A stretch of DNA of 64,000 nucleotides from Candidatus Hadarchaeota archaeon (GCA_964514965.1 CAZETV010000001.1:889239-953238), one strand, 5' to 3'; positions 31,953-56,120 are shown, counted from the stretch's first letter. Notes: generated by a model not told the origin, from the letters alone. Translations and numbers: made by a program.

Positions 31953-32681
31953 TTATTTTCTGAATTTTTGTAGTTTTTTTAGCAGCTCCTTGTCACCTTC
32001 ATAGTCTCCAGCGCAAGTCGCGATTATGCCATCTACAAGACCATCCAATTTCGCTGCGTATTCTTCAACACGATCCATAGTCGTTGTGCTTGGCCACCCG
32101 ATTATCTTTAAAATTTCCTTATTTTTGGGGGTTCCTACAAGGAAGTAAGAGTACAAGGGTTTGTTTAGACGTTTACACTCTTCAGCTATTCGCTCCAGTA
32201 TGGGGAAGGACTTATCTTCAAGTCTCATGAAACATATGAAATCCCATGCACCCCCCACTCGGGCAATACTTTCTTCCGCGGATCGGCGTGCTGTAATCAA
32301 GCAGCCTAACTTTAGATCTTTTATATGCACCGTTGTGCGTAAGAAATTTCGGGCTTCCTCGGAGGATTTTAACATTTTTATGGGCTCTCCGTGCTTGGGG
32401 ATGTCGCCCATAGAGAGCACGATTCCGTCAAGACCTATAGCATCTGCAGCTAGAGCCAGGCCCCCGGCTTCAACCGGGCCCTTATAGTGTAATATGAAGA
32501 TGGGTATCACCATTTTGTCTGGGTATTTAGTTTTGAGGATGCAGCCCACAACCGTCCCGCTGGGTGCCGGCATGCCTGCGGCGCTATCCGTGACGTTCCA
32601 TCCATCAACCAAATCATGAGTTTCTTCGGCAAGTTTCAGAAAATCGCGCGTTGGGACAAACTCGTGTAATATCCTCATCAC
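31953..32681 (-). CDS. MetF-like methylene-tetrahydrofolate/H4MPT reductase family protein (short form)
   Basis: Segments EFVPTRD, VTDSAAG and IVLSMGD align by eye with E. coli MetF segments EFFPPRT, VTYGANS and IVALRGD; only 242 aa, shorter than canonical MetF. Confidence 0.5.
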   Translation of the reverse strand: MMRILHEFVPTRDFLKLAEETHDLVDGWNVTDSAAGMPAPSGTVVGCILKTKYPDKMVIPIFILHYKGPVEAGGLALAADAIGLDGIVLSMGDIPKHGEPIKMLKSSEEARNFLRTTVHIKDLKLGCLITARRSAEESIARVGGAWDFICFMRLEDKSFPILERIAEECKRLNKPLYSYFLVGTPKNKEILKIIGWPSTTTMDRVEEYAAKLDGLVDGIIATCAGDYEGDKELLKKLQKFRK

Positions 32682-32951: not shown

Positions 32952-33722
32952 ATGATGGCTAAAAGAAAAATCCTAAAAATCGACCTCAGAAAACGCAAAA
33001 AATCCGAAGAGGAGGATCTCCTAGCTGTTGACAAGCTTATTAACATCTTCGTTAACGGGGAGTATTTCGTCACCCTCATGGCAAGTCCAAGAAATATTCG
33101 GGAATTGGCGATCGGTCACTTGCTGGGGCAGGGCATCATTAGTACGCTGGAGGATATCGAGCATGTGAGCATAAGGGGAAAAAACGTCAACCTGAGGACA
33201 AAAGCTGAAATTCAACTTGGAGCCACCAAATTCCCGAAGGTAATCCCGACCGCTTGTGGTGCATCGGAGGACATTATTGAACTTCTAGGTAAATCGGGTG
33301 TACTGAAACTCAAGGTGAAATTTAGTGCAGAAAATATTGGGGGTGCGTTTAAATCACTTTACTCTGCGTCTAAGATTTTTAAAAAAAGCGGGGGCACCCA
33401 CGCAGCGGCTTTGTTCGCGTGGAATGGAAAAATGAAATTTTGCATAGAGGATGTCGGGAGGCATAACGCGGTAGACAAGGTCATCGGGAGAGGGCTGATT
33501 GAGGGCGTGAATTTTACAAGGAGCTTTATGATCTCGACGGGTAGGTTATCGGCGGATATGGTGATCAAGTGTGCGAGAGCCGGGATACCGCTCGCTGCAT
33601 CAAAAGCAGCCCCTCTTGAATCAGGCCTCCTAGCGGCTGAGATGAGCGGCTTGACGCTTGTCGGTTTCGTTAGGGGGAGCCGAATGAACGTGTACACGCG
33701 CCCTGAACGGGTGAAATTTTAG
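32952..33722 (+). CDS. fdhD: Formate dehydrogenase accessory sulfurtransferase FdhD
   Basis: 256 aa FdhD-like sequence (TACGASE...GGTHAAALF...GRHNAVDKVIG). Confidence 0.8.
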   Translation: MMAKRKILKIDLRKRKKSEEEDLLAVDKLINIFVNGEYFVTLMASPRNIRELAIGHLLGQGIISTLEDIEHVSIRGKNVNLRTKAEIQLGATKFPKVIPTACGASEDIIELLGKSGVLKLKVKFSAENIGGAFKSLYSASKIFKKSGGTHAAALFAWNGKMKFCIEDVGRHNAVDKVIGRGLIEGVNFTRSFMISTGRLSADMVIKCARAGIPLAASKAAPLESGLLAAEMSGLTLVGFVRGSRMNVYTRPERVKF

Positions 33723-34343
33723 ATGGGAAAGCTCGGCATTTTGGTTTTAGCGGGCGGGGGCAGCAAGAGGTTTGGTAGAGAGAAGCCCTTTTTCGAGATA
33801 AACGGGAAACCCATGATTCAGCACGTAGTAGGAAAGATCTCCAAACTATCCAAAGAATTAGTGATATCGTGTAGGTCTAGCCGAGAGAAACTGGCGAGAA
33901 TGTTTCCTAGCGCAAAAGTCATTGTGGACAAGGATGAGAGGAAAGGAGCATTAACGGGCCTAGTGAGCGTGCTTCCTGAGATCAGATCTGAGTACACGGC
34001 TTTGGTAACGTGCGACTGCCCGAAAATCAGGCTGGAAGTCATTGAGTTGTTATTTGAGAAAGCGAAAAACCATAGCGGTGCAGTCGCCAGATGGCCGAAT
34101 GGTTATGTGGAACCACTTCAAGCCGTTTACGAAACGGAAAAACTGCTAAAGGCCGTGAACGAGGTGTGGAAAAGGGGGGAAATGAGGTTAATGGAGGTCC
34201 TAAATATAGTCCCGGATATCGTTTACGTATCGACGGAGGAACTAAGGGGGATTGATCCAAAATTGGAATCATTCCTGAATGTGAACTCACCTGAGGACAT
34301 CGAGCTTCTGTCGGCGGGAAATCTAAATAGAGGATATAGGTAG
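33723..34343 (+). CDS. mobA: Molybdenum cofactor guanylyltransferase MobA
   Basis: N-terminal LAGGGSKRFG nucleotide-binding motif, 206 aa; start immediately after the fdhD stop. Confidence 0.75.
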   Translation: MGKLGILVLAGGGSKRFGREKPFFEINGKPMIQHVVGKISKLSKELVISCRSSREKLARMFPSAKVIVDKDERKGALTGLVSVLPEIRSEYTALVTCDCPKIRLEVIELLFEKAKNHSGAVARWPNGYVEPLQAVYETEKLLKAVNEVWKRGEMRLMEVLNIVPDIVYVSTEELRGIDPKLESFLNVNSPEDIELLSAGNLNRGYR

Positions 34344-34448
34344 GCGAGTTAACCCTGAAAACCTTCGACCATTCTATAAACAGCATTTACCAAAACCATG
34401 TTAATGGTGGTAATTACGTCAAGGCCCACTTTGCCTATTAATTCAATC

Positions 34449-35612
34449 ATGGTGGTCGGTGTCAACACCAGACCAATCGTCAAATCAGCGAAGGCCCTCG
34501 GCTTGAAAACTATTGCTGTAGATTGTTTTGGCGACATCGATTTGCGTGGATATGCAGATGATGTGTTTTCTGTCAGATCCGCCGAGTTGAAGGTTCAGCC
34601 TAAAAGCTCGAAAAGACCTAGTCTCTTTCATCTCTCGCTCCAAGCTCTTGAAACCCACAACGTCGATGCAATTATTTTAACATCGGGCATGGAGCACTAC
34701 TCAGCGTTTATTGAGGATCTTGGAAAGAGGGCAAAAATAATTGGAAATGACACGACAAGCTTGGAGACGTGCAAAAATAAAGAGAAACTTTTTCGCATAG
34801 CGGATAAACTTGGCATCCCCTACCCGCTCACACGTAGGGTTAGAAAGCTAGATGAAGCGTTAGAGGCCGCACGGGATATCGGGTACCCCGTTGTTTTGAA
34901 GCCGGCTTTTGGAGGCGGCGGCATCGGGATAAGGCTTGCTAGGTCACCGGATGAGTTGGTGCGATTCTTTGGAAGGGTGTTGTCAGCGGGTGATAAAAAG
35001 AATTTGTACGTGCAAAAGTACATTCAAGGCATCGATGCTAGCACATCTATCTTGTCGAACGGTGATGAGGCCAAGTGTCTAACAATTAACGAGCAAATCA
35101 TAGGCGACAAACGGTTGGGCGTGCCCAGGCCATTTGGTTACTGTGGCAACGTGATACCTCTAAACAAAACCGAGTTTGAAAACCAAATCGCCGAGACATC
35201 GAAAGCGATTTGTGAGGAAATCGGATTGGTGGGCTCGAATGGGGTCGATTTCGTCCTTTCTGACAAGCCATACCTGATGGAGATAAATCCCAGATTTCAG
35301 AATACGATTGATTGCGTCGAAGGACTTCTCGGGATAAACCTTGTTTGGGAACATATCCAATCTTGTCTGGGTGAGCTAGGCAGATACAAGCAACCCAGCG
35401 GTTACTCCGCTAAGCTAATCCTGTATGCTAAGAGAGATTCTAGAATTCCGGACCTCAGAGGAACACCAAGTATTGTTGATGTGCCCGCACCCAAAACAAC
35501 GGTTAGAAAAGGAAAACCAATTTGCTGCGTCTTAAAGTTTGGTGGAGACAGACGCAGGCTAATCGTCGATGCGTATAGAGCGGCGGGTAAGCTCTACGAG
35601 AAAATATATTAA
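34449..35612 (+). CDS. ATP-grasp family ligase, unassigned (adjacent to methanofuran biosynthesis genes)
   Basis: ATP-grasp fold features (VVLKPAFGGGGIGIRLA, nucleotide-binding and Mg-binding regions EINPRFQ); start chosen at ATG 34449 (MVVGVNTRP). Confidence 0.6.
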   Translation: MVVGVNTRPIVKSAKALGLKTIAVDCFGDIDLRGYADDVFSVRSAELKVQPKSSKRPSLFHLSLQALETHNVDAIILTSGMEHYSAFIEDLGKRAKIIGNDTTSLETCKNKEKLFRIADKLGIPYPLTRRVRKLDEALEAARDIGYPVVLKPAFGGGGIGIRLARSPDELVRFFGRVLSAGDKKNLYVQKYIQGIDASTSILSNGDEAKCLTINEQIIGDKRLGVPRPFGYCGNVIPLNKTEFENQIAETSKAICEEIGLVGSNGVDFVLSDKPYLMEINPRFQNTIDCVEGLLGINLVWEHIQSCLGELGRYKQPSGYSAKLILYAKRDSRIPDLRGTPSIVDVPAPKTTVRKGKPICCVLKFGGDRRRLIVDAYRAAGKLYEKIY

Positions 35613-36334
35613 CACAGCTTCAACCGATTAATGTCTTCTCTTGTAATCACTCCTTTGTGAAGTGATGTTGCAACAAGGACGCCTGCTGCGCCATGGTCAC
35701 GCAACAAGCGAATATCTTCGATGCTTATCACCCCGCCCCCCACAAGCACTGGCATATTTGTGCATTGCAAAGCTAAGTTCAACGATTCAAAATCCGGCCC
35801 CCCTTGGGTGCCTACCCTATCTAAGGACAGAAGAATTATCTCAGAAGCCCCCTCACCCTCAAATTTTCGAATGAGTTCTTCTAGTCGTAGCCGCATCAAG
35901 TCCGACCTAGCAACCACATGTCCAAATTTAACATCGATACTGGCCGCCACGGGCATTTTATGAGCGTTTATTAATTTGGGAATTTCCTCGAAGGATTCAA
36001 GCGTCTCCGTAGCGAGCACAATTTTTTCCACACCTTTTTCCACGTATTTATCAACTTCATCAGCTCGTCTGAAGCCCGCATCCACCATGATTTTCATCCC
36101 GGTTTCGGCCACGATTTGGCCTATCACACGGTGATTGTGGCCGATTCGACGAATGGCATCCAGATCTGCGATGTAGAGTTCTTCTAGGCCGAGCTTTTGG
36201 AACGCCCTTGCCACTGATAGGGGATCAGAATTCCCCACGAGGACACTTCGAACCGCTTTGTATCTCTCTCGTTCACCTGCAATCGCATGGACGACTTTGC
36301 TGTGCATGATGTCAATGACTGGAATAACCCTCAT
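35609..36334 (-). CDS. HisA/HisF-family TIM-barrel protein, unassigned
   Basis: 241 aa with (beta/alpha)8 HisA/HisF-like phosphate-binding segments (VIPVIDI...YIADLD...VLVGGGVISIEDI); translationally coupled to mfnE. Confidence 0.6.
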   Translation of the reverse strand: MRVIPVIDIMHSKVVHAIAGERERYKAVRSVLVGNSDPLSVARAFQKLGLEELYIADLDAIRRIGHNHRVIGQIVAETGMKIMVDAGFRRADEVDKYVEKGVEKIVLATETLESFEEIPKLINAHKMPVAASIDVKFGHVVARSDLMRLRLEELIRKFEGEGASEIILLSLDRVGTQGGPDFESLNLALQCTNMPVLVGGGVISIEDIRLLRDHGAAGVLVATSLHKGVITREDINRLKLC

Positions 36335-36972
36335 AGCGAGACCTCCGGTAATATCGTTGTGCAGGTAGTTTCCTTTCCACTTAGTATTTTTTTGATTCGA
36401 TCAGGATGCCTTCCGTTCACCACCCAGCAGGTTATACCCGTGTGCTCTAAAGTCTGCGACAGTTTTGGATCCACACAGGATTGGTCAATTTTCCTAAGCT
36501 TCTGGATGGAGATAGATTTCTGAAGTCGCCCCTGTTCGAGAATTCCGTCAATCATTTTAACCAAAAGGAGTTTTTTACAACCAATCTTTTCGGTGACCCA
36601 TGCTGCAATTGAATCTGAGGTTACCTTCCATGTGGGTTCAAGTTCCGGAGAGCAACCCAAAGTTCTATACGGAAGAAATATCGAACACCCCCGCGCTTCC
36701 CTTTTAGGGATATCCGTTAAGGTCGAGCCATCGATTAGATCGTGGAACATCAACCCATAGAGATTCATGCTAAGAATCGCCATTTGGTGGGCAACTTGAT
36801 CGGAGAACTCGTGCTTCATCTGCAGCTTACGCACGAGATTCGCAAAATCACCACCGCCTGGGATAATGAGTAAGCCGTGGCGATTGGATATCTCCTTTAA
36901 AGTTCTGCATAAGTTCCTCAGGGCAGGGGGGTCAGCTTGTAAGCCTCCACCCACCTTAATCACGACATCCAT
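36331..36972 (-). CDS. mfnE: Amino-acid-kinase-family kinase, probable MfnE (methanofuran biosynthesis)
   Basis: 213 aa with kinase N-terminus VVIKVGGGL and IIPGGGDFAN; position inside the mfn cluster. Assignment by family and context. Confidence 0.5.
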   Translation of the reverse strand: MDVVIKVGGGLQADPPALRNLCRTLKEISNRHGLLIIPGGGDFANLVRKLQMKHEFSDQVAHQMAILSMNLYGLMFHDLIDGSTLTDIPKREARGCSIFLPYRTLGCSPELEPTWKVTSDSIAAWVTEKIGCKKLLLVKMIDGILEQGRLQKSISIQKLRKIDQSCVDPKLSQTLEHTGITCWVVNGRHPDRIKKILSGKETTCTTILPEVSL

Positions 36973-38002
36973 GCTTGAGCGCCTCCGCAGCCAGTAGACT
37001 GGCGCCGAATGCGGGCGCCATCAACGCCGCCTCCTCACCATACAGAGTTGCGAAATCGATGACTTCATTGAATCCCAAGGCCCGAACAGCTTTTTCAGCG
37101 AGAATCCTCCTACCGAGGCCTGCCACTACAATCTTCGAACTCTTTGGAAGCTTATGTAATCTAATGACTTTTTCAAGTACTTTGGCCACGAGGTCTATTT
37201 GTTTCTCATGGAAGGCTTTCGCAGCCATGATGATTTGCCTTTTCCCGATCTCATCCACATCACTGCAGAAAACCCTTGCGATACGTTGCATACAGCTCGC
37301 TCTATCCTTTTTCCTGCCGTCGGGAGTTTCGCACATATAATCCTCCTCTTCAATCATCCCAAGCACTCTATAGACATCGGCTGTGATGGCAAAGTTTTCG
37401 GCGGCAATCCTCGTTTTTTTGCCGCTGAGCGACACTTCTGAGCAAATAAATGGCAGCGGGGTGCGGAGAACCCCCATATAAAGAAGTTCGCCAGTCCTCA
37501 ATCTCTGAAGGTCGGTCTGTCCCAGAGGGGAGGGCCTGACTTTCTTTAAGGGAATTATGTCTGTGGTAGTGCTTCCGACGTCCATGAAAATGCAATTAGG
37601 ATATTTCCTTCCCACGATCGAGGTGCTGGCAATCCAATTGGCTGCTGCGAGCTTTCCCGGGAAAGCAAGCGATTGTTCGCGCGTAAACAAGGCACCATCT
37701 AACGACACAAACAAACAGACCTTTTTCCCAAATGCACCACATGTGACTTCAACTATCTCAGCTACTCCTTCATGTTTGGTCCGAAAGATATCGCAGAGTT
37801 CCCCAGTTAAGGTAACTCCAACGACTTGTGGGCGGGTGAATTCGGCGAGATTTCTAAGGAATCGGTCGAGCGCTTCCTTGTTCTTCCATAGCGGAATGTA
37901 CTTGAGCCAGCATCTTTGTACTTTCTCGTCCTCAAGCAGAACGGCTTTTGTGTTTGCCCCGCCTATGTCAAGACCAAGCGATCGCATCCCCACCGACCCC
38001 AA
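36956..38002 (-). CDS. mfnF: Hydantoinase-A-like ASKHA protein, probable MfnF (methanofuran biosynthesis)
   Basis: 348 aa ASKHA-like protein with LGLDIGGANTK and FMDVGSTTTDIIP motifs, matching the H4MPT-linked C1 pathway family to which MfnF belongs. Confidence 0.5.
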   Translation of the reverse strand: MGSVGMRSLGLDIGGANTKAVLLEDEKVQRCWLKYIPLWKNKEALDRFLRNLAEFTRPQVVGVTLTGELCDIFRTKHEGVAEIVEVTCGAFGKKVCLFVSLDGALFTREQSLAFPGKLAAANWIASTSIVGRKYPNCIFMDVGSTTTDIIPLKKVRPSPLGQTDLQRLRTGELLYMGVLRTPLPFICSEVSLSGKKTRIAAENFAITADVYRVLGMIEEEDYMCETPDGRKKDRASCMQRIARVFCSDVDEIGKRQIIMAAKAFHEKQIDLVAKVLEKVIRLHKLPKSSKIVVAGLGRRILAEKAVRALGFNEVIDFATLYGEEAALMAPAFGASLLAAEALKHGCRD

Positions 38003-39116
38003 TCAAAGTAGCAACCTCGTTTAACGTGCTTTCGAGCCTGTGTTCAGCGCTTCTGGCGGTGATTCCAGATTCCACGATGATTGAAAGCGGGCGCCCTTTC
38101 TGGATACTCCCATTGGACGGGATGGGTGGAGAGATAACTCCTGGGATTTCCCGGAGTTTGCCCAGCTTTTTGACATTCATTCTGATGTTCTTTCCAGCTT
38201 TGGGGATTTTCATCAAAGAATATCCCTCAAGCTTTGGGTTGGGCATGGTTGCTCCGTCGATGAGCACCCTCACCAAGATTTCTCCTAGATTTGCTTGGAG
38301 TACTCGAGCTAATGCGACGAAGGATGTAGTTATCCGAGGGTTTAACTCTATGAAAAAAGGCGAAGTTCCGACAACTAGGTCGACCCCACAATAACCGCGC
38401 AAACCTAGACTTTCGGCAGCTTTGAGAGCGATCTCGGCGCATTTTTCTTTTAGCGGATGATCAAGCGGGACTGCTCCGCCAACATACATGAATCGGCCTT
38501 TTTGAATTGCTATCTCCTGTCGGTTTACAGATAGTACAGTTCCTCCCTCTTCCCCCATCATCAAACAACAACTTGCATGTTCACCCTCAAGGAATTCCTG
38601 AAAAATCACACCCGCGGCGCCACGTGATGACGTAGCAAATTTGATTCCTTCGCAGCCAATCCCATCCACAGGTTTGATAAGGACTCTTCCGGTGCCGCGC
38701 GGTTTTTTCCATGTCTTCGGCTGTGGAACAATCCCTTGGAGCATGCGATGCGTGAGCCATTTGTTTGCGCAAATCCGAATGATTTCTGCTTGGGACCCGA
38801 GCACCTTTATACTCCTTTTTCTTAGTTTCGTGCTTATCTCCTCAAGCTCGCGTCCTTTCTCAGGTGCTATAACCAATGCTGCATCGGGCCTGCATTTCAA
38901 AGCTGCATTTAATCCATTTCGATTTGGGAACACATCTGCATCTAACCAATCAGCTAGCCCCCTAAGCCTTTTGTCGAGAACCGTGATGATGTCGAAGCCG
39001 CTACCGCTGAACTCGCTCACCATGGTTCTCAACATGGCGAAGCCTTCGGAGAGAAGTTGAGCGTTAGTCTCTGGATGAAGGCCCCCAGCCACACTTTCAA
39101 GTATTAAGACGCGCAT
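37968..39116 (-). CDS. mfnD: ATP-grasp ligase, probable tyramine--L-glutamate ligase MfnD
   Basis: 382 aa ATP-grasp protein (KPVDGIGCEGI, ELNPRITTSF) between mfnB and mfnF. Confidence 0.5.
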   Translation of the reverse strand: MRVLILESVAGGLHPETNAQLLSEGFAMLRTMVSEFSGSGFDIITVLDKRLRGLADWLDADVFPNRNGLNAALKCRPDAALVIAPEKGRELEEISTKLRKRSIKVLGSQAEIIRICANKWLTHRMLQGIVPQPKTWKKPRGTGRVLIKPVDGIGCEGIKFATSSRGAAGVIFQEFLEGEHASCCLMMGEEGGTVLSVNRQEIAIQKGRFMYVGGAVPLDHPLKEKCAEIALKAAESLGLRGYCGVDLVVGTSPFFIELNPRITTSFVALARVLQANLGEILVRVLIDGATMPNPKLEGYSLMKIPKAGKNIRMNVKKLGKLREIPGVISPPIPSNGSIQKGRPLSIIVESGITARSAEHRLESTLNEVATLIGVGGDAIAWS

Positions 39117-39118
39117 AA

Positions 39119-39850
39119 CTAAGCCCTCAGAATTTTTTTCAGCCGCCGAACGAGTCTCTCGGATACTCTGCCATTTTTTCTGTCCCCACCCTCACAGACC
39201 ACTCCCCTAACCCCGATTACGTCTGGATTCAGCGACTTCAGCGTCTGTACTTCTTTAAGCCCTAACGAACCGGCGAGAGAAGCCCATAGACCGTATGAAT
39301 GTGAATTGTTAACGAAATTCTCCAAATCTTCTCTCCGAAGGAAATCTGTGAGGGGCCGGCCGTCCTTGATTGCCGTATCTATCATTGCAATGTCAGCTTC
39401 ACATTCGCCCGCTATTTCAGGTATGAGCAGGGGATTTATTGTTCCAGACCTCTCAAAGTCCCCATAAGTACATACAGCAACCTTTGCCGATCCATAAGTG
39501 CCTTTAACCGCCCTTACCACCTGCTTTACAAAGTATATGGCACTTTTCACATCTTTTGGACCTTTCAGTCCGACTTTTATTATATTAGCCCCCGCTTTAA
39601 GGGCACCAAACGCCGCTAGGGCAGCACTTCCCGGAAGGTCAGGGAAATCGCCAATGGCCGCGCTGAGAGGTATGTTCGCGGGTACGGATTGCCTCACGTT
39701 AGCTATGACCCATGGGAAGTTTGCACCGAGCGATCCCTCTTCAGGGTTCTTAATGTCGAGAATATCGGCTCCCCCTCTGATAGCGGCCAATGCCTCCTCG
39801 ATGTCTCTAGGGCTGACAAGAAGTAGGGTCAAGTTAGGTCCTCCAGGCAT
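39119..39850 (-). CDS. mfnB: DUF556/MfnB-type (5-formylfuran-3-yl)methyl phosphate synthase
   Basis: 243 aa class I aldolase-like TIM barrel with LLLVSPRDIEEALAAIRGGADILDIKNP N-terminus and catalytic Lys context (IIKVGLKG). Confidence 0.65.
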   Translation of the reverse strand: MPGGPNLTLLLVSPRDIEEALAAIRGGADILDIKNPEEGSLGANFPWVIANVRQSVPANIPLSAAIGDFPDLPGSAALAAFGALKAGANIIKVGLKGPKDVKSAIYFVKQVVRAVKGTYGSAKVAVCTYGDFERSGTINPLLIPEIAGECEADIAMIDTAIKDGRPLTDFLRREDLENFVNNSHSYGLWASLAGSLGLKEVQTLKSLNPDVIGVRGVVCEGGDRKNGRVSERLVRRLKKILRA

Positions 39851-40959
39851 TCGTCGAAATCAGCCAAAAATGAAGTTATGTGTTTTAGACGATGATGGGG
39901 CATGACCACAAGTCTGATGCTCCGCGGCTGACTATTCATAGATACGAGCCACCCTCTTGCTTCCAGTTTATCGCAGACATCGCTTAAATTGACAGTATCC
40001 GATTTGACGGCAACGATGTTGAGTTCGGGCTCCACTATGAGGTCCACGGCGTCCATCTTTCTGATGCCTATCGCCAGCTTTTGCGTTAGGTCCATGCAGC
40101 GCTTAACTATCTTTTGGTAGCCTTTGTACCCTAATGAGTTAAGAAGGGCCCAAACTGCGGCTACGGACGCGCCCGATCTCGTGCCCAAGAGAGTTGAGTT
40201 TGGGCTGTTCAGATAGGGCGGATTCATTTCGATTTTTTTAAGCCAATTTCCATTGCGGAAAAGGATGGACCCCGCTGGTATGGGGGCAAGCCCCATCTTA
40301 TGAGGGTCTAGGGTGATGGATGATACCGAACCTATGCTAAAATCCCAAGGGGGAGGATTTTTAATGAAGGGTAAGACAAAACCTCCAAACGATGCATCTA
40401 CGTGAAGAAAACAGCCAAGATCCTCAGCAATTTCAGCGATCTCCTCGATTGGATCTACCAAACCAAGTGCCACCGTGCCAGCAGTGGCCGTAATGGCTAG
40501 AGTCTCTTTGCTGGCTTTTTCTTGTATGCTGTCGACGCTTGCACGGTAAGTCTCATCGAGTGCTATGTGAGTAAGATTCAGCTGTTGAAGATTACATGCC
40601 TTAGTTACAGAATAATGAGCAGAAACAGGCGCGATTACATTTTTTCGGTTTAGTAGTTTTCTGGCAACCCACAAGGTAACTATGTTCCCTTCAGTTCCTC
40701 CCGAAGTTATGTAGCCAGCTGCCTCAGGTCTTGAAGTCAATGTACCGATTTTTCTTATCGCCTCTTCTTCCAGTGATTTCACGCTTGGGAAAATTCGGGG
40801 GTCCAATAGATTCGTTTCAAGAAACATCAAATATGCATCAACGGCTACCTTCAATGGTTTTGAACACATGGAGCAAAAAACTCTGCCAGAATCATAGCTC
40901 CAATCCTGGCTCCGTCTGTCCTCAAGCGATTTCAACAGCTCTTTGGCGGAGCCAGTCAT
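39829..40959 (-). CDS. mfnA: L-tyrosine decarboxylase MfnA (PLP-dependent, group II decarboxylase)
   Basis: 376 aa with PLP-lysine motif context (SITLDPHKMGLAPIPAG) and SGGTEGN segment typical of archaeal MfnA. Confidence 0.8.
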   Translation of the reverse strand: MTGSAKELLKSLEDRRSQDWSYDSGRVFCSMCSKPLKVAVDAYLMFLETNLLDPRIFPSVKSLEEEAIRKIGTLTSRPEAAGYITSGGTEGNIVTLWVARKLLNRKNVIAPVSAHYSVTKACNLQQLNLTHIALDETYRASVDSIQEKASKETLAITATAGTVALGLVDPIEEIAEIAEDLGCFLHVDASFGGFVLPFIKNPPPWDFSIGSVSSITLDPHKMGLAPIPAGSILFRNGNWLKKIEMNPPYLNSPNSTLLGTRSGASVAAVWALLNSLGYKGYQKIVKRCMDLTQKLAIGIRKMDAVDLIVEPELNIVAVKSDTVNLSDVCDKLEARGWLVSMNSQPRSIRLVVMPHHRLKHITSFLADFDECLEDLT

Positions 40960-41030
40960 AGAATCCCAAGCGTAAATTTTTGGTCTGAATTTATAAATGC
41001 GAGAGTGCCAATAAATTTGGAGGTTTGGTC

Positions 41031-41858
41031 ATGGTTCAAAGGGTGAGAGTAGGATTAGTTAAGATGGGCAACCTCGGCACTTCTGCCATGTTAGATCTGA
41101 TGCTCGATGAGCGGGCGGAAAGGGAGGACATCGACTTTAGGGTTGTGGCATCTGGGCCGAAAATAACCGAGGAGGACTGTAAAGGGGTTTCTGAAAAAAT
41201 TCTTGATTTCAATCCCGAACTAATCATAGCAATAAGCCCAAATCCTTCCGTTCCGGGACCTTCGAAGGCCAGAGAAATCCTCAAGAAATCTGGCAAGCCT
41301 TGCATAATCATCGGCGATGCCCCAGGTACTAAAATCGCCGGAGAACTTGAGAAGACAGGTTTTGGCTACATATTCGTCGAGGCGGATTCCATGCTTGGCG
41401 CAAGAATGGAATTTCTTGACCCTATCGAGATGTCGCTCTTTAATGCGGATGTAATCAAGGTTCTTTCAGTAACCGGCGCTTTCCGAGTTGTTTATGAGGA
41501 GGTTGATAAAGCAATCGAGGGCGTGAAGTCTAGCAAGCCCTATTTGCCGAAGATAATTATCGACCGTGATAAAGCTGTAAACGCCGCCGAATTTGAAAAT
41601 CCCTATGCGCGTGCGAAGGCCATGGCAGCTTTTGAAATAGCGAAAAAAGTTGCAGACGTAAGCGTTGAGGGCTGTTTTAGGGTCAAGGAGAAAGAGAGGT
41701 ACATACCGATTGTGGCGGCGGCGCATGAGATGATGAGGACGGCCGCAAAGTTATGTGACGAAGCTCGCGAAATAGAAAAAAGCGAGGACTCTGTGCTAAG
41801 GAGGCCGCATGGAAGAAAAGGCGAACTCCTCTCGAAACGAAAGCTTATGGGAATCTAG
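41031..41858 (+). CDS. mtd: F420-dependent methylene-tetrahydromethanopterin dehydrogenase
   Basis: N-terminus MVQRVRVGLVKMGNLGTSAMLDLMLDERAERED matches the Mtd family; GGAGGT Shine-Dalgarno 8 nt upstream of ATG 41031 (ORF track began at an upstream TTG). Confidence 0.85.
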   Translation: MVQRVRVGLVKMGNLGTSAMLDLMLDERAEREDIDFRVVASGPKITEEDCKGVSEKILDFNPELIIAISPNPSVPGPSKAREILKKSGKPCIIIGDAPGTKIAGELEKTGFGYIFVEADSMLGARMEFLDPIEMSLFNADVIKVLSVTGAFRVVYEEVDKAIEGVKSSKPYLPKIIIDRDKAVNAAEFENPYARAKAMAAFEIAKKVADVSVEGCFRVKEKERYIPIVAAAHEMMRTAAKLCDEAREIEKSEDSVLRRPHGRKGELLSKRKLMGI

Positions 41859-41860
41859 AA

Positions 41861-42967
41861 TTGGCACTCCTCGGTACTAAGTGCGGGGATTCTTGTACGC
41901 TCATTAATAGAGGGGCACTAAAATTGTTTGGAATAGGGATGAAAGGAAAACCGCTGGAAGGTGACATGGTAGAAACGGCGGATAACATTATTTTCGATGT
42001 TAGAGGACATACCCATCCGCCCGGAAGGGTCATTGCTTATCCCAAGTACGTGTCAGATTTGAGAGGGAACTTGAGGCGTGGCGAAACCACTTTTCGGAGG
42101 GTCCGCACCTTTCAAGATTTGCATGATGCAATTGAGCAGTTGGATTCAAAGTATTTGATTTACGATCCTGTTTTCGGCGAAAAATTATGCGAAGTTTCGG
42201 AGGAAGGTATAAACTATCACTATAGACCCAGCGACTGTCTGTCAGAGCTGCGACGTAAAAAGGAGCTGGACAAAGTCGAAAATGAGGCACTTTCCCTGCT
42301 TCAGCTCATGAAAACGGAAGCCAAAGTTCCGTGGAACAAGCTAGGACTTTCTGGGTCAATACTTACGAAGCTCTACACAATCTCGTCTGACATTGATCCC
42401 GTTGTTTATGGATTGAAGAACTGCTGCCGAGTATACGCGAGCATAATGCAGTTGTTGGAGGATGGGGAAATAGAATTAGAGAAGGTGAAGGAGGAAGAGA
42501 AGAAGGAAGATTATAAAAAAGAAATTCGTTCCGGAGAGTTGGATAAATCTGTAGTCTCTTATGAAGATTACATGCGCGTGGAAATGAGAAAAACCTTTGT
42601 GGGGCGGTTTGGCGGTCGGAAGTACTCCATAAAATTCGTCAAGGATTGGGGTGAGGTAGAGAGTACCTATGGGGTGGTTAAGTGTACTCCAAGAGGAAGT
42701 GTTAGAATAAAGGCCAAAATCGAGGACGATTCGGATGCAATCTTCATGCCAGGCGCCTATAAGATTTGTAACGTCAAGCTCTTGGAGGGGCCAGATTTTG
42801 TGCCAGTGGAGATTTTATCAGTTCACTTAAGGTTCTGTGAACAGGCAAAAAGGGGCGAAACTGTTATCGCGCGGGGAAAGCTTGAATCTGTACAGCGGAG
42901 AAGTGGGGACGAATATTATAGGCTCGTCCTTGGGAACGAGGCTTCAGACTACATGATTTTAGTTTGA
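41861..42967 (+). CDS. Uncharacterized protein with central Pol-beta-superfamily nucleotidyltransferase motif
   Basis: 368-aa ORF starting 3 nt after the mtd stop; contains GS-x9-DxD signature (LGLSGSILTKLYTISSDIDPVVYG) about 150 aa from the N-terminus, flanked by unrecognised N- and C-terminal domains. Confidence 0.4.
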   Translation: MALLGTKCGDSCTLINRGALKLFGIGMKGKPLEGDMVETADNIIFDVRGHTHPPGRVIAYPKYVSDLRGNLRRGETTFRRVRTFQDLHDAIEQLDSKYLIYDPVFGEKLCEVSEEGINYHYRPSDCLSELRRKKELDKVENEALSLLQLMKTEAKVPWNKLGLSGSILTKLYTISSDIDPVVYGLKNCCRVYASIMQLLEDGEIELEKVKEEEKKEDYKKEIRSGELDKSVVSYEDYMRVEMRKTFVGRFGGRKYSIKFVKDWGEVESTYGVVKCTPRGSVRIKAKIEDDSDAIFMPGAYKICNVKLLEGPDFVPVEILSVHLRFCEQAKRGETVIARGKLESVQRRSGDEYYRLVLGNEASDYMILV

Positions 42968-43004
42968 GGTTCAAAAATCAGGTTTCTAAAACTAAGATTA
43001 AAAT

Positions 43005-43877
43005 TCAATGAGTTAAAACGTGATCGATTATCTTTTTGGTTATACTTACTTTTGTCGTGGATTGGAGACCTTTCCACCCAGGAATGGCGTTGACCTCAGT
43101 AATGAAGAACTCGTCATCCCGTTCAACGATGTCCACCCCGGCGTACTCACATCTCAAGATTTCTGCCGACTTTATCGATGCTTCTTCTAGCTCTCCACGT
43201 AATTCACATGGCTCGACTCTCGCTCCCTTTGAAAAGTTAGTCTTCCAGCTTTCGCCGACTCTCTTCATTGCCGCTATAACTTCATCCCCGATAATGAAAG
43301 CCCTTATATCCTCGTTGCGATGAGGAATGAACTCTTGGACGTAATACACATACCTTCCAAATTCAAGGGCCGTAAAAACTCTATATGCTAGGTCCCGATC
43401 ACTCACTCGTACCATCCCCGCACCCAAAGAGCCGAAGAGGGGCTTGACTATCACGTCCTTGAACTCCTCGAAGGCCTTCATGGCATCGTCATGCTTTTCG
43501 GTAACGATAGTCTTGGGGGTCGGGATTCCCGCATCTTCCAACAAAGAGCACGTATAGAACTTATCCGCACATCGCTCTATGGCGATTGCAGGGTTCAGTA
43601 CCTTTACTCCCAAATTCTCCAGCCTGTGAAGCGTATCCATTCTGAATATCAGCTGTTCCGCTGATCCTTTCGGCACCCATCTGACAATTAATGAGTCGAA
43701 CTCATCAAGATCGTGACCACAACATGAGACGCGTGGCTTTCCGCTCAACTTTGCGACTAGGTAAGAAAGAGGAAAGGTAAAACAGCTGATTTTTCTGCTT
43801 TCTATTTCTTCCCTCAACTGCTCAACATTCCAGTCATTTTTACCTGAGGTAAAAATTCCGATTTTCTTCACACGCAT
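43005..43877 (-). CDS. mptN: RimK-like ATP-grasp glutamate ligase, probably tetrahydromethanopterin:alpha-L-glutamate ligase (MptN) or CofF-like
   Basis: 290 aa RimK-type ATP-grasp (VIVKPLFGSLGAGM, EVNAIPGWKG); last gene of the fwd-ftr-mch operon. Confidence 0.55.
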   Translation of the reverse strand: MRVKKIGIFTSGKNDWNVEQLREEIESRKISCFTFPLSYLVAKLSGKPRVSCCGHDLDEFDSLIVRWVPKGSAEQLIFRMDTLHRLENLGVKVLNPAIAIERCADKFYTCSLLEDAGIPTPKTIVTEKHDDAMKAFEEFKDVIVKPLFGSLGAGMVRVSDRDLAYRVFTALEFGRYVYYVQEFIPHRNEDIRAFIIGDEVIAAMKRVGESWKTNFSKGARVEPCELRGELEEASIKSAEILRCEYAGVDIVERDDEFFITEVNAIPGWKGLQSTTKVSITKKIIDHVLTH

Positions 43878-49386: not shown

Positions 49387-49772
49387 TTAATCCCTTTTAT
49401 TTGTGTTATGGCATTTACTATTTTCAATATATCTTTGTCCGTCGCTAAAATCTCCGCTTCAACGCCTTTAGAATCTGGCATCCCGGTTCCTTGAGTATCC
49501 GCGCTTATCACCATATTTGCCCAAGGCCCGTAGGGCATGAAAGCGATTCCGTGGTCTATTCTCGACTCTTTACACCTAACGACGGTTGAACCGAATTTGG
49601 TGCTAACTTCTACATTTTCACCCTCTTTAGCACCGATTTCTTTCATATCGTTTTCATTCATCATGACCATGGCGACATTTTTAGAATATTCCTCAGAAGT
49701 TTTGCTAATTTCTAGACTTGTCCCCTGTTCTACCGTCCTTCCACTGATTAAAATCACTTTCATGTGATTCAT
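49383..49772 (-). CDS. fwdD: Formylmethanofuran dehydrogenase subunit D
   Basis: 129 aa molybdopterin-dinucleotide-binding-domain-like small subunit, first gene of the operon. Confidence 0.75.
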   Translation of the reverse strand: MNHMKVILISGRTVEQGTSLEISKTSEEYSKNVAMVMMNENDMKEIGAKEGENVEVSTKFGSTVVRCKESRIDHGIAFMPYGPWANMVISADTQGTGMPDSKGVEAEILATDKDILKIVNAITQIKGIK

Positions 49773-50941: not shown

Positions 50942-50968
50942 TGATTATTTTCAGATGAGTGTGATATT

Positions 50969-53063: not shown

Positions 53064-53110
53064 CGATTCATCCTTCCGTGAGGTCTATTCCATTTTCCAT
53101 TGTGTGCGAT

Positions 53111-56087: not shown

Positions 56088-56120
56088 ATGTTTTTCTCAC
56101 ACATAAAACTCTCAAAGATT

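What the first reader, a model, noticed from the sequence alone, without database searches (positions are those of the whole stretch)
34449..40959. Methanofuran biosynthesis cluster with two extra unassigned enzymes (ATP-grasp ligase and HisA/HisF-like barrel)
mfnA (Tyr decarboxylase), a DUF556 MfnB-type synthase, an ATP-grasp (MfnD-like), a hydantoinase-like ASKHA protein (MfnF-like) and an amino-acid-kinase-fold protein (MfnE-like) are translationally coupled on the minus strand (36331..40959). A HisA/HisF-family TIM barrel (35609..36334) is coupled to them, and a second ATP-grasp ligase (34449..35612) converges on the cluster. The enzymes that add the extra gamma-glutamyl residues and the distal carboxylate moiety of methanofuran are not assigned in the characterised pathway. 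A second ATP-grasp ligase and a sugar-phosphate-type barrel in this cluster are therefore plausible candidates for those steps, or for a variant side chain.
Basis: partly seen in the sequence, partly recalled or inferred. Interest (0 to 1): 0.7.

Follow-up and report, generated by a model that had tools for sequence, protein, structure and literature searches.

The report
Methanofuran operon with MyfA/Orf17 counterparts
An uncultured Hadarchaeota archaeon carries a methanofuran-cofactor operon whose two "extra" genes match two bacterial genes already shown to be essential for the related cofactor methylofuran, so they are testable candidates for unassigned steps in archaea rather than a new kind of system.

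Summary
Seven genes lie at the stated coordinates: mfnA, mfnB, an MfnD-type ATP-grasp, an MfnF-type and an MfnE-type gene, and a HisA/HisF-like barrel. They overlap head to tail on the minus strand. A second ATP-grasp gene converges on the barrel.

The two extras are not orphans. The second ATP-grasp is the reciprocal best match, over its full length, of bacterial MyfA (OrfY). The barrel is the reciprocal best match of bacterial Orf17 and belongs to the MJ0703-type family (TIGR00734). Hemmann et al. 2021 showed both bacterial genes are essential for methylofuran. A myfA mutant accumulates the cofactor with zero or one glutamate. An orf17 mutant accumulates no glutamylated intermediate.

New here:
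- The barrel sits next to mfn genes in 19 of 21 informative archaeal metagenome contigs.
- The MyfA-type ligase is found in Hadarchaeota, Bathyarchaeia, Asgard archaea, ANME and methanogens. It lies beside mfn genes only in Hadarchaeota; elsewhere it sits near fwd, ftr or mtd.

Most likely the ligase adds the second gamma-glutamate. The barrel probably acts early in making the core, by unknown chemistry. This is a new member of a known kind, of moderate interest.

The parts
34398..35612 (+). MyfA/OrfY-type ATP-grasp ligase ('grasp2'). Alternative starts are 34404, 34446 and 34449. Proposed glutamate ligase that starts the gamma-glutamyl tail of methanofuran.
   Evidence: - Family: Pfam ATP-grasp_3, 114.5 bits. 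No NCBIfam cut-off is reached; MfnD_Meth scores 41.6 against 400.
- Match to MyfA: reciprocal best BLAST with Azospirillum and Ancylobacter MyfA, 105 and 90 bits, full length. hhalign against the MyfA family gives E 7e-41 over 357 columns. The MyfA HMM hits only this ORF in the window, 149 bits. An NJ split placing it with MyfA has 84% bootstrap support.
- Catalytic residues: K152, E279, N281 and R283 are invariant or nearly so.
- Structure: AF2 pLDDT 92.9, with a three-domain fold like biotin carboxylase, TM 0.79.
35609..36334 (-). HisA/HisF-like (beta/alpha)8 barrel of the Orf17 / MJ0703 (TIGR00734) type. The last gene of the mfn operon.
   Evidence: - Family: Pfam His_biosynth, 159 bits. 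TIGR00734 is the best NCBIfam hit, 159.5 against a cut-off of 179.9. HisA models score 123 against 243, and HisF 58 against 295.
- Match to Orf17: reciprocal best hit of Ancylobacter Orf17, 33% identity, full length, 100 bits.
- Residues: D8, D85, G87, E110, D134, G200-G201 and H226 are conserved in 98% or more of 82 family members. D8 and D134 align with the catalytic D11 and D130 of PriA.
- Context: an mfn gene is nearby in 19 of 21 metagenome loci that have 2 kb or more on both sides.
36331..36972 (-). MfnE-type amino-acid-kinase-fold protein (kinase for [5-(aminomethyl)furan-3-yl]methyl phosphate).
   Evidence: NCBIfam MfnE is the best hit, 142 bits, full length, but below the cut-off of 300. 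Pfam AA_kinase. 39% identical to the Azospirillum homologue that sits in an operon with MfnB. Overlaps the barrel gene by 4 nt.
36956..38002 (-). MfnF-type hydantoinase-like protein, which couples F1-PP to gamma-glutamyltyramine.
   Evidence: TIGR03123, 348.6 bits against a cut-off of 244.1. The MfnF equivalog scores 271 against 520. Reciprocal best hit of bacterial Orf9, 145-157 bits.
37968..39116 (-). MfnD-type ATP-grasp (tyramine--L-glutamate ligase type). A long form with a C-terminal domain of about 100 residues.
   Evidence: MfnD_Meth is by far the best NCBIfam hit, 133 bits, covering model positions 12-269 of 288, but below the cut-off of 400. The best PDB sequence match is 3df7, 95 bits. 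Reciprocal best hit of bacterial Orf1/MfnD, 82 bits. The median length of this neighbour in metagenome loci is 401 residues.
39119..39850 (-). MfnB, (5-formylfuran-3-yl)methyl phosphate synthase.
   Evidence: Pfam 4HFCP_synth, 256.7 bits. NCBIfam equivalogs score 289.6 against 341 and 287.4 against 304.
39829..40959 (-). MfnA, tyrosine decarboxylase. The first gene of the operon.
   Evidence: TIGR03812, 422.9 bits against a cut-off of 299.4.
32952..34343 (+). Context: fdhD (32952..33722) and mobA (33723..34343), which mature the Mo/W-pterin cofactor. They run in the same direction as the MyfA-type ligase and lie upstream of it.
   Evidence: TIGR00129, 208.5 bits. The MobA model scores 132 against 164. 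The fdhD-mobA-ligase order is kept in L001, L085, L086 and L087; L004 and L005 keep fdhD and L002 keeps mobA upstream of the ligase. L001, L002 and L004 lack the mfn operon at this site.
41025..49772 (.). Context: genes for enzymes that use methanofuran or H4MPT.
- mtd 41025..41858(+)
- unknown nucleotidyltransferase-like gene 41861..42967(+)
- RimK/MptN-type ligase 43005..43877(-)
- mch 43868..44809(-)
- fwdC 44806..45627(-)
- ftr 45624..46520(-)
- fwdA 46511..48118(-)
- fwdB 48115..49386(-)
- fwdD 49383..49772(-)
   Evidence: ORFs. The RimK-type ligase scores 292.8 bits against MptN_Meth (cut-off 350). fwdA matches Amidohydro_3. mtd, mch, fwdC and ftr were named from their sequences; homologues recur next to each other in related loci, and Pfam MCH and FTR label the bacterial counterparts. 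fwdB and fwdD are named from their position and my own reading of the sequence, not from a family search.

Best explanation
The stretch 34398..40959 is the methanofuran (MFR) biosynthesis locus of a Hadarchaeota archaeon. The operon mfnA-mfnB-mfnD-mfnF-mfnE builds the known core. MfnA gives tyramine. MfnD gives gamma-glutamyltyramine. MfnB gives the furan aldehyde phosphate. MfnE and MfnF activate the furan unit and couple it. The aminotransferase MfnC is not encoded in the cluster.

The two extra genes are the archaeal counterparts of two bacterial methylofuran genes.

1. The convergent ATP-grasp is a MyfA (OrfY)-type ligase. I infer the following mechanism. It activates the gamma-carboxylate of free L-glutamate as an acyl phosphate. 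It then transfers it to the free alpha-amino group of the first glutamate, on gamma-glutamyltyramine or on APMF-Glu. That makes the second gamma-glutamyl residue found in every methanofuran, and possibly further ones. This is the same chemistry as MfnD with a different amine acceptor.

2. The HisA/HisF-like barrel is the Orf17/MJ0703-type protein. It is a conserved additional component of furan-cofactor synthesis that acts before or at formation of the core. It keeps the HisA/PriA acid-base aspartate pair and the C-terminal phosphate-binding GG loop, but has a remodelled N-terminal half. I infer, weakly, an acid-base isomerisation or ring reaction on a singly phosphorylated intermediate of the furan branch.

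Shown here: homology, reciprocal best matches, conserved residues and conserved gene neighbourhoods. Shown in bacteria by others: that both genes are genetically essential, and which intermediates accumulate. Inferred: the archaeal substrates and the chemistry of the barrel.
For: MyfA assignment of the ligase:
- Reciprocal best BLAST with the bacterial ATP-grasp that lies between mtdB and mch: Azospirillum 105 bits (E 1e-28), Ancylobacter 90 bits, both full length. The window's MfnD-type protein instead pairs with bacterial Orf1/MfnD.
- Profile-profile comparison with the MyfA family gives E 7e-41 over 357 columns, including the N-terminal domain. Against the MfnD-type family it gives E 2e-29 over 292 columns.
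- The split (ligase family + MyfA) has 84% NJ bootstrap support.
- The MyfA HMM hits only this ORF in the window.

That the bacterial protein really is MyfA:
- In Ancylobacter it lies five genes from the MfnD-type gene. This matches Snov_0751 (MyfA) and Snov_0746 (MfnD) in Table S4 of PMC8141765.

Function of MyfA and Orf17 in bacteria (PMC8141765):
- The myfA mutant accumulates methylofuran with 0 or 1 glutamate.
- The orf17 mutant lacks methylofuran, shows no glutamylated intermediates, is complemented by orf17 on a plasmid, and still makes dH4MPT.

The barrel:
- Reciprocal best hit of Orf17 at 33% identity. TIGR00734 is its best NCBIfam model.
- In 19 of 21 metagenome loci with 2 kb or more on both sides, an mfn gene is nearby, and in 18 it is within 500 bp. 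mfnB is the commonest neighbour.
- D8 and D134 are invariant and align with the catalytic D11 and D130 of PriA.

Context of the ligase:
- It converges on the mfn operon in 11 further Hadarchaeota-type loci.
- In L008 it heads an operon ligase-fwdDBA-ftr-fwdC-mch-rimK.
- It lies 3-6 kb from ftr or mtd in about 27 Bathyarchaeia loci.
- Family members occur in Methanohalophilus, Methanosalsum, Methanobacteriaceae, Methanocellales, ANME-1, ANME-2 and Archaeoglobi.
Against: - MyfA has never been assayed in vitro. Its role rests on the intermediates seen in one M. flagellatus mutant, which also accumulated the core with no glutamate at all.
- Identity between the archaeal and bacterial ligases is only 24-27%, and 84% NJ bootstrap support is moderate.
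- The ligase is not next to mfn genes outside part of the Hadarchaeota. In L001, L002 and L004 a transporter gene takes the place of the mfn operon.
- In Syntrophoarchaeum the ligase follows an OMP-decarboxylase-fold gene, and in ANME-2 an M42 peptidase gene.
- One family member is labelled Methanofastidiosia. To my knowledge that group lacks the MFR-dependent pathway.
- All six core steps were reconstituted from M. jannaschii enzymes without MJ0703 (my own knowledge of Wang et al. 2015, which I could not read here). No gap in the known chemistry therefore demands the barrel.
- The side chain of Hadarchaeota methanofuran is unknown.
Confidence: 0.6

Rival explanations
1. The HisA/HisF-like barrel works in tetrahydromethanopterin biosynthesis, as once proposed for MJ0703. 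It would catalyse a HisA/TrpF-like Amadori rearrangement of the N-aryl ribosylamine phosphate (RFA-P or its pterin adduct) on the way to the ribityl chain.
For: - It keeps the HisA/PriA catalytic aspartate pair and one phosphate-binding loop.
- PMC8141765 notes that MJ0703 had been suggested for H4MPT biosynthesis.
- The same window carries a set of H4MPT biosynthesis genes at 50.9-57.1 kb.
Against: - The M. extorquens orf17 mutant still makes methenyl-dH4MPT but has no methylofuran.
- In archaeal contigs the neighbours are mfnB, mfnD, mfnF, mfnE and mfnA in 19 of 21 informative loci. They are not mptG or pterin genes.
- In the window the gene overlaps mfnE by 4 nt and lies about 15 kb from the H4MPT genes.
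Confidence: 0.12
2. The second ATP-grasp has nothing to do with methanofuran. It would be a carboxylase or ligase of another pathway (carbamoyl-phosphate-synthase-like, biotin-carboxylase-like or PylC-like) that merely happens to abut the mfn operon in some Hadarchaeota.
For: - Its top NCBIfam and PDB sequence hits are CPSase and biotin carboxylase (84 and 79.5 bits).
- The best whole-chain fold match is biotin carboxylase.
- The adjacency to mfn genes is lost in L001, L002 and L004, in Bathyarchaeia and in Asgard archaea.
- Neighbours in Syntrophoarchaeum and ANME-2 are unrelated genes.
- One family member is labelled Methanofastidiosia.
Against: - Those hits are far below any family cut-off (84 against 1027) and reflect the shared ATP-grasp fold.
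- The only family that matches it over the full length, N-terminal domain included, is MyfA.
- There is no biotin carrier or carboxyltransferase gene nearby.
- Where it is not beside mfn genes, it is beside fwd, ftr or mtd.
- The taxa that carry it use H4MPT and MFR.
Confidence: 0.15
3. The second ATP-grasp glutamylates, or otherwise extends, a different C1 cofactor such as H4MPT/sarcinapterin or F420, rather than methanofuran.
For: In Bathyarchaeia it lies near mtd, an MtdB-like gene, an FrhB-like gene and ftr. These enzymes use H4MPT and F420.
Against: - A RimK/MptN-type ligase is already present at 43005..43877 (293 bits to MptN_Meth).
- The known tail ligases for H4MPT and F420 are of the RimK or CofE type.
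- The bacterial counterpart MyfA affects methylofuran specifically.
- Ftr and Fwd, also neighbours, use methanofuran.
Confidence: 0.1
4. The barrel is simply the organism's histidine-pathway HisA or HisF.
For: Pfam His_biosynth scores 159 bits. The closest solved structures are HisA and PriA at E 1e-22 to 1e-20.
Against: - It falls below all HisA and HisF equivalog cut-offs: 123 against 243, and 58 against 295.
- Family-invariant changes occur in the HisA phosphate and substrate loops: SGG becomes DAG, GTAA becomes ATET, GKA becomes ATS.
- There are no other his genes nearby, and it overlaps mfnE.
- Its bacterial counterpart coexists with true hisA and hisF.
- HisIE pairs are reported in Hadesarchaea. 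That suggests a separate histidine pathway exists.
Confidence: 0.03

Closest known systems
MyfA (OrfY) of methylotrophic bacteria (Methylobacillus flagellatus Mfla_1659, Methylorubrum extorquens Mext_1830; Hemmann et al. 2021, PMC8141765)
   Same: Homologous over the full length, with the same three-domain ATP-grasp_3 architecture. The N-terminal 'V-x-(G/A)-x-(N/S)-x-R...G-L...(A/V)-D-x-F-x-D' segment and the C-terminal 'G-x-P-(I/V)-C-(S/T)-V' segment are both shared. It is the reciprocal best match. It coexists with a separate MfnD-type ligase and a RimK-type ligase, and is embedded among H4MPT/MFR genes.
   Different: Only 24-27% identical. The host is an archaeon whose cofactor should be methanofuran with a gamma-linked tail, not the large branched polyglutamate of methylofuran. 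In bacteria the gene lies between mtdB and mch; here it follows fdhD-mobA and converges on the mfn operon. Activity has not been shown in vitro for either protein.
Orf17 of Methylorubrum extorquens and MJ0703 of Methanocaldococcus jannaschii (NCBIfam TIGR00734, 'HisA/HisF family protein')
   Same: Reciprocal best hit of Ancylobacter Orf17 (33% identity, full length). TIGR00734 is its best model. It shares the invariant residues D8, DAG, E110, D134, GG and H226. It is encoded next to mfnD and mfnF homologues, as in bacteria.
   Different: It scores 159.5 bits, just under the curated cut-off of 179.85. Here it is translationally coupled to mfnE at the end of the operon, whereas in most other archaeal contigs it is transcribed divergently from the mfn genes. 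Its reaction is unknown in every organism.
MfnD (MJ0815), tyramine--L-glutamate ligase
   Same: The same ATP-grasp_3 superfamily, and the same inferred chemistry: activation of the gamma-carboxylate of glutamate and transfer to an amine. hhalign gives E 2e-29 between the two window families.
   Different: The second ATP-grasp scores only 41.6 bits on the MfnD model, over about 100 residues. Its N-terminal domain does not align with that of MfnD. A separate MfnD-type gene is present in the same locus.
HisA / PriA (ProFAR isomerase) and HisF
   Same: A (beta/alpha)8 barrel with both catalytic aspartates and the C-terminal GG phosphate loop.
   Different: The N-terminal phosphate loop and the beta-4 loop are replaced by family-specific residues (DAG, T-E). 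The HisA and HisF equivalog cut-offs are not met. The genomic context is mfn genes, not his genes.
MptN (MJ0620) / MyfB (Orf5), RimK-type glutamate ligases
   Same: The neighbouring gene 43005..43877 belongs here. It scores 293 bits on MptN_Meth and is 34% identical to bacterial Orf5. It follows mch, as orf5 does in bacteria.
   Different: The second ATP-grasp of the finding is not of this type. Its RimK-family hits are 34-49 bits and partial. Whether the RimK-type gene acts as an MptN or a MyfB could not be decided.

Membership tests
MyfA/OrfY-type ATP-grasp (second ATP-grasp, 34398..35612) | Full-length homology to MyfA, including the N-terminal pre-ATP-grasp domain and the C-terminal domain | tested here: met
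   BLASTP aligns residues 1-388 with 13-370 of Azospirillum MyfA, E 1e-28. hhalign gives E 7e-41 over 357 columns.
MyfA/OrfY-type ATP-grasp (second ATP-grasp, 34398..35612) | Closer to MyfA than to the paralogous MfnD-type and RimK-type ligases (reciprocal best match and tree) | tested here: met
   Reciprocal best hits. The MyfA HMM hits only this ORF in the window. The NJ split with MyfA has 84% support, against 14% for a split with MfnD. This support is moderate, not strong.
MyfA/OrfY-type ATP-grasp (second ATP-grasp, 34398..35612) | ATP-grasp catalytic residues: the ATP-binding lysine, the Mg-binding E-x-N motif and the arginine | tested here: met
   K152 is nearly invariant. E279, N281 and R283 are invariant in 16 family members.
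MyfA/OrfY-type ATP-grasp (second ATP-grasp, 34398..35612) | Encoded among genes of the H4MPT/MFR-dependent C1 pathway | tested here: met
   Next to the mfn operon in Hadarchaeota. Heads a fwd-ftr-mch operon in L008. Lies near ftr or mtd in about 27 Bathyarchaeia loci. This does not hold in Syntrophoarchaeum or ANME-2.
MyfA/OrfY-type ATP-grasp (second ATP-grasp, 34398..35612) | Needed to add glutamate to the furan cofactor that carries 0 or 1 glutamate | not testable with these tools
   Known only from the M. flagellatus mutant. No in vitro assay exists.
MfnD (tyramine--L-glutamate ligase), tested on the second ATP-grasp | NCBIfam NF040722 equivalog score of at least 400 | tested here: not met
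   41.6 bits, covering residues 201-305 only.
MfnD (tyramine--L-glutamate ligase), tested on 37968..39116 | NCBIfam NF040722 equivalog score of at least 400 | tested here: inconclusive
   133.4 bits, below the cut-off. It is nevertheless the best hit by about 100 bits and covers model positions 12-269 of 288. It is the reciprocal best hit of bacterial Orf1/MfnD.
TIGR00734 hisAF_rel / Orf17 (barrel, 35609..36334) | Curated model score of at least 179.85 | tested here: inconclusive
   159.5 bits over the full length (residues 1-230 on model positions 1-221 of 221). This is the best of all models but under the cut-off.
TIGR00734 hisAF_rel / Orf17 (barrel, 35609..36334) | Reciprocal best match to Orf17, the protein with the genetic phenotype | tested here: met
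   33% identity, 100 bits, full length, in both directions. It is the only hit in the window.
TIGR00734 hisAF_rel / Orf17 (barrel, 35609..36334) | Encoded next to furan-cofactor genes | tested here: met
   19 of 21 informative metagenome loci have an mfn gene nearby, 18 within 500 bp. In bacteria it lies beside the MfnD-type and MfnF-type genes.
HisA (EC 5.3.1.16) / HisF | Equivalog model cut-offs (HisA 229-243, HisF 294.55) | tested here: not met
   HisA models score 122.9 and 121.9. HisF scores 57.9.
HisA (EC 5.3.1.16) / HisF | Two phosphate-binding loops for the bis-phosphorylated substrate | tested here: not met
   The N-terminal loop 'SGG' of PriA is an invariant 'DAG' here. The C-terminal 'GG' is kept, but the 'GKA' that follows is 'ATS'.
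HisA (EC 5.3.1.16) / HisF | The catalytic aspartate pair | tested here: met
   D8 and D134 align with PriA D11 and D130. Both are present in 100% of 82 family sequences.
MfnA / MfnB / MfnE / MfnF (core methanofuran enzymes) | Curated family models | tested here: inconclusive
   - MfnA is met (422.9 against 299.4).
- TIGR03123 is met for the MfnF-type protein (348.6 against 244.1).
- Pfam 4HFCP_synth is met for MfnB.
- The narrower equivalogs for MfnB (289.6 against 341), MfnE (142 against 300) and MfnF (271 against 520) are not reached.
- Synteny with one another is conserved.

The most novel reading that the evidence does not exclude
The six-enzyme MfnA-F route to the methanofuran core is incomplete in vivo. 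The HisA/HisF-like barrel (the Orf17/MJ0703 family) would carry out an essential, still undescribed reaction common to archaeal methanofuran and bacterial methylofuran synthesis. The MyfA-type ATP-grasp would be the missing archaeal ligase that starts the gamma-glutamyl tail, present from Hadarchaeota to cultured methanogens.
Probability: 0.35. Interest if true: 0.7.

Novelty: new member of a known kind. Interest (0 to 1): 0.45.

Why it matters
Methanofuran is the first C1 carrier in methanogenesis and in the archaeal Wood-Ljungdahl pathway. Its biosynthesis is considered solved only up to the core carrying one glutamate. Who adds the further gamma-glutamates, and what the HisA-like protein does, are open questions.

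This locus and its relatives carry the 2021 bacterial genetic leads over to archaea. They name concrete archaeal genes, including orthologues of the ligase in cultured methanogens such as Methanohalophilus. They also show that the barrel is the most faithfully mfn-linked gene that still has no assigned reaction. Both questions thereby become directly testable by enzyme assay and by knockout.

The result does not reveal a new kind of system.

Tried and rejected
Papers I could not read:
- The three primary papers that would define OrfY, Orf17 and the MfnE/F work are not held (PMC1151760, PMC1065231, PMC4524034). That orfY lies between mtdB (orfX) and mch in M. extorquens AM1 therefore rests on my memory, plus the five-gene spacing argument.

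A wrong guess:
- I guessed that bacterial Orf19 might be the ligase's counterpart. The second Azospirillum cluster holds dihydroneopterin aldolase, an amino-acid kinase, DUF6513, DUF447 and MfnB, but no ATP-grasp.

Searches that gave little or failed:
- A search of plasmids with MfnB returned mostly Streptomyces furan-metabolite genes and was not useful.
- The first bootstrap calculation compared rooted clades against unrooted replicates and gave meaningless support values. I redid it on bipartitions.
- Apparent mfnE-barrel and mfnF-mfnE 'fusions' in L018 and L011 are probably artefacts of my ORF caller. For L018 I checked the tblastn coordinates: the two genes are in different reading frames.
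- Looking up the contig of P0241 found nothing on record.
- The afdb50 fold library was unavailable.
- Literature searches for COG2232, MfnG/MfnH and combinations of HisF with methanofuran found nothing beyond PMC8141765.

Other points:
- No MfnC-like aminotransferase recurs in the clusters. I had no MfnC query sequence; the check was by clustering of neighbouring ORFs.
- The fold match of the ligase to biotin carboxylase reflects the shared architecture and says nothing about its substrate.

Full report
**1. Observation.**
On the minus strand lie mfnA (39829..40959), mfnB (39119..39850), an MfnD-type ATP-grasp (37968..39116), an MfnF-type hydantoinase-like gene (36956..38002), an MfnE-type amino-acid-kinase-fold gene (36331..36972) and a HisA/HisF-like barrel (35609..36334). 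They are joined by overlaps of 22, 35, 17 and 4 nt and one 2-nt gap. A second ATP-grasp gene on the plus strand ends at 35612, so its 3' end overlaps that of the barrel gene by 4 nt. Its start is ambiguous. ATG 34398 lies 19-25 nt after a TATA-like 'ctataaa', and 34404, 34446 and 34449 are also possible.

**2. Family scans.**
- MfnA passes its equivalog cut-off (423 against 299).
- The MfnF-type protein passes TIGR03123 (349 against 244).
- MfnB matches Pfam 4HFCP_synth at 257 bits.
- The narrower MfnB, MfnD, MfnE and MfnF equivalogs are each the best hit and full length, but below the curated cut-offs.

This fits a divergent lineage.

**3. Organism and setting.**
The closest homologues of the second ATP-grasp that carry names come from Hadarchaeaceae and Hadesarchaea MAGs. 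MSBL1, Bathyarchaeia and Asgard archaea follow. The window is a large C1 island:
- cdh genes upstream;
- fdhD and mobA directly before the ligase;
- after the operon, mtd, an unknown gene, a RimK/MptN-type ligase, mch, fwdC, ftr and fwdABD;
- further on, a set of H4MPT biosynthesis genes: GHMP-type mptG-like, DUF1464, DUF6513-Pterin_bind-DUF4346, flavoprotein with Fe-S domain, DUF447 and CitG-like.

This mirrors the 'archaeal-like' gene cluster of methylotrophic bacteria.

**4. The key literature.**
Hemmann et al. 2021 (PMC8141765) studied that bacterial cluster. They state that for archaeal methanofuran the enzymes adding further glutamates and the terminal moieties are unidentified. They then show that three bacterial genes are essential for methylofuran.
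- orfY, renamed myfA, is an ATP-grasp with partial similarity to MfnD. Its mutant accumulates the cofactor with 0 or 1 glutamate.
- orf5, renamed myfB, is RimK/MptN-like. Its mutant stalls at 2 glutamates.
- orf17 belongs to Pfam PF00977, the HisA/HisF family, and is 26% identical to MJ0703. Its mutant has no methylofuran and no glutamylated intermediates, but still makes dH4MPT.

**5. The second ATP-grasp is a MyfA-type ligase.**
I obtained bacterial clusters from an Azospirillum plasmid and from the Ancylobacter terrae chromosome. In Ancylobacter the gene order is:

fhcCDAB, mptG-like, mtdB, a 383-residue ATP-grasp, mch, RimK (orf5), CitG (orf7), His_biosynth (orf17), a 319-residue MfnD-type gene (orf1), MfnF (orf9).

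The five-gene spacing between the two ATP-grasps matches Snov_0751 (MyfA) and Snov_0746 (MfnD) in the paper's Table S4. It also matches my recollection that orfY lies between mtdB and mch.

Reciprocal BLAST pairs every window gene with one bacterial gene:

| Window gene | Bacterial partner | Score |
|---|---|---|
| second ATP-grasp | MyfA | 105 and 90 bits, full length |
| MfnD-type | Orf1/MfnD | 82 bits |
| RimK-type | Orf5 | 161-166 bits |
| barrel | Orf17 | 100 bits, 33% identity |
| MfnF-type | Orf9 | 145-157 bits |

Further tests agree.
- Profile-profile comparison gives E 7e-41 over 357 columns against MyfA. Against the MfnD-type family it gives E 2e-29 over 292 columns, without the N-terminal domain.
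- An NJ tree puts the ligase family with MyfA in 84% of 300 bootstraps.
- A MyfA HMM hits only this ORF in the window.
- The ATP-grasp catalytic residues are conserved.
- The AF2 model is confident (pLDDT 92.9). It has the generic three-domain fold of biotin carboxylase, which says nothing about substrate.

**6. Distribution and context of the ligase.**
Relatives occur in 372 GTDB species genomes. A search of 1.84 billion cluster representatives found 145 at E 1e-30 or better. Named members include Methanohalophilus, Methanosalsum, Methanobacteriaceae, Methanocellales, ANME-1, ANME-2, Syntrophoarchaeum and Archaeoglobi. The members tested against the three family HMMs (Methanohalophilus, Methanosalsum, Methanobacteriaceae, ANME-2, Syntrophoarchaeum and three unnamed or Odinarchaeota-cluster sequences) score 250-352 bits on the ligase-family HMM, against 49-77 bits on the MfnD-type HMM.

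The convergent arrangement with the mfn operon is kept in 11 other Hadarchaeota-type loci. It is not kept elsewhere.
- In L001, L002 and L004 a solute-symporter gene occupies the place of the operon.
- In L008 the ligase heads an operon ligase-fwdDBA-ftr-fwdC-mch-rimK.
- In about 27 Bathyarchaeia loci it lies 3-6 kb from ftr or mtd.
- In Syntrophoarchaeum and ANME-2 the neighbours are unrelated genes.

So the link to methanofuran-using enzymes is broad, while the link to the mfn operon itself is lineage-specific.

**7. The barrel is an Orf17/MJ0703-type protein, and its link to mfn genes is general.**
TIGR00734 is its best model (159.5 against 179.85). The HisA and HisF models fall far short. 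I scanned metagenome contigs with a family alignment and kept the 80 best loci, at 35-74% identity. Of the 21 loci with 2 kb or more on both sides, 19 carry an mfn gene, 18 of them within 500 bp. The usual layouts are:
- mfnE-mfnF-mfnD-mfnA-mfnB, transcribed divergently from the barrel gene;
- mfnB, then mfnE-mfnF-mfnD on the other strand, then the barrel gene.

mfnB is the commonest neighbour overall, present in 38 of 79 loci. No aminotransferase recurs.

Across 82 sequences D8, R22, D85, G87, E110, D134, G175, G179 and G200-G201 are invariant, and H226 is present in 98%. The motif at residues 52-61 is conserved too, but it was the search pattern, so that conservation is not independent evidence.

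Aligned with S. coelicolor PriA, D8 and D134 are the catalytic D11 and D130. The N-terminal phosphate loop SGG has become DAG, GTAA has become ATET, and GKA has become ATS. The protein therefore looks catalytic but built for a different substrate, probably one with a single phosphate.

**8. Mechanism proposed.**
The ligase most likely activates the gamma-carboxylate of free glutamate and joins it to the alpha-amino group of the first glutamate. This is the N-terminal direction of growth required by the all-gamma-linked archaeal tail, and it is what Hemmann et al. propose for MyfA. It is MfnD chemistry with a different acceptor, which fits the family relationship.

The barrel most likely acts in forming the core, on the furan branch, by acid-base catalysis. 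The exact reaction is not known, and I rate any specific proposal at about 0.2. A caveat is that the M. jannaschii core pathway was reconstituted without MJ0703. That is from my own knowledge of a paper I could not read.

**9. Rivals.**
- A role for the barrel in H4MPT synthesis is contradicted by the bacterial mutant and by its mfn-only neighbourhoods.
- A true HisA is excluded by model scores, loop changes and context.
- A ligase unrelated to methanofuran, or one acting on another cofactor, remains possible at roughly 0.1-0.15 each. MyfA has not been assayed, and the ligase's mfn linkage is lineage-specific.

**10. Verdict.**
Both 'unassigned' genes, however, have bacterial counterparts with published phenotypes, and the barrel probably does not build the side chain. 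This is a new (archaeal) member of a known kind. The useful additions are two. First, the barrel's strong linkage to mfn genes across archaea. Second, the recognition of MyfA-type ligases in archaea, cultured methanogens included.

Noticed in passing
window 41861..42967 (+); the true start is probably near 41939: A conserved protein of about 340 residues with no Pfam, NCBIfam or PDB sequence match.

- Motif: an invariant Pol-beta nucleotidyltransferase motif, G-x-S-G-S...S-D-x-D.
- Structure: the AF2 model is confident (pLDDT 91). It shows a beta domain, a nucleotidyltransferase domain and an OB-like barrel, and has only weak partial PDB fold matches.
- Context: homologues, mostly from Bathyarchaeia, sit inside ftr-fwdC-mch-rimK operons, next to mfnB, or next to the CitG-like gene and the radical-SAM pterin methylase.
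- Idea: it could be a CitX-like partner of the CitG-like enzyme in building the phosphodiester side chain of H4MPT. The bacterial clusters I read lack such a gene, and those bacteria make dephospho-H4MPT. This is untested.
   Followed up: partly
L167:3118-4173 (ANME-2) and about 24 Bathyarchaeia loci, e.g. L016:12168-13211: An M42-family aminopeptidase gene recurs beside the MyfA-type ligase. In ANME-2 it ends 4 nt before the ligase gene. In Bathyarchaeia it lies about 1.5 kb downstream. The two peptidases are 46% identical. It could be a trimming enzyme for the glutamyl tail, or a coincidence. The window has no such gene.
   Followed up: partly
45 Bathyarchaeia/Asgard loci, e.g. L045:11191-11925 (-): A 244-residue protein that looks multi-pass membrane-spanning, with no NCBIfam match, converges on the MyfA-type ligase gene. 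It occupies the position that the barrel gene holds in Hadarchaeota. In L001, L002 and L004 a solute:sodium-symporter-like gene sits there instead.
   Followed up: no
window 43005..43877 (-): A RimK-type ligase whose gene overlaps the end of mch. It scores 293 bits on MptN_Meth (cut-off 350) and is 34% identical to bacterial Orf5/MyfB. It follows mch exactly as orf5 does in bacteria. Whether it glutamylates H4MPT (like MptN) or the furan cofactor (like MyfB) could not be decided.
   Followed up: partly
window 49877..57104: A block of H4MPT biosynthesis-type genes: MetE-like, GHMP-type mptG-like, DUF1464, DUF6513-Pterin_bind-DUF4346, flavoprotein with 4Fe-4S domain (DmrX-like), DUF447 and CitG-like. 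Together with the mfn operon and the fwd, ftr, mch and mtd genes, roughly 25 kb of this genome collects most of the genes of the bacterial 'archaeal-like' cluster.
   Followed up: partly
window 31953..32681 (-): A 242-residue protein with no Pfam or NCBIfam match. It is conserved at 85-88% identity between cooC and fdhD in related Hadarchaeota contigs (L085, L086).
   Followed up: no
window 37968..39116 (-) and metagenome loci L084-L163: The MfnD-type ligase here is a long form of 382 residues. The median of this neighbour in the metagenome loci is 401 residues, whereas the NCBIfam MfnD model is 288 positions long. The extra C-terminal domain of about 100 residues resembles that of the MyfA-type ligase.
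   Followed up: partly
L166:7339-9089 (Ca. Syntrophoarchaeum): Here the ligase homologue overlaps the end of an OMP-decarboxylase-fold gene by 22 nt. This pairing was not seen in any other lineage I examined.
   Followed up: no
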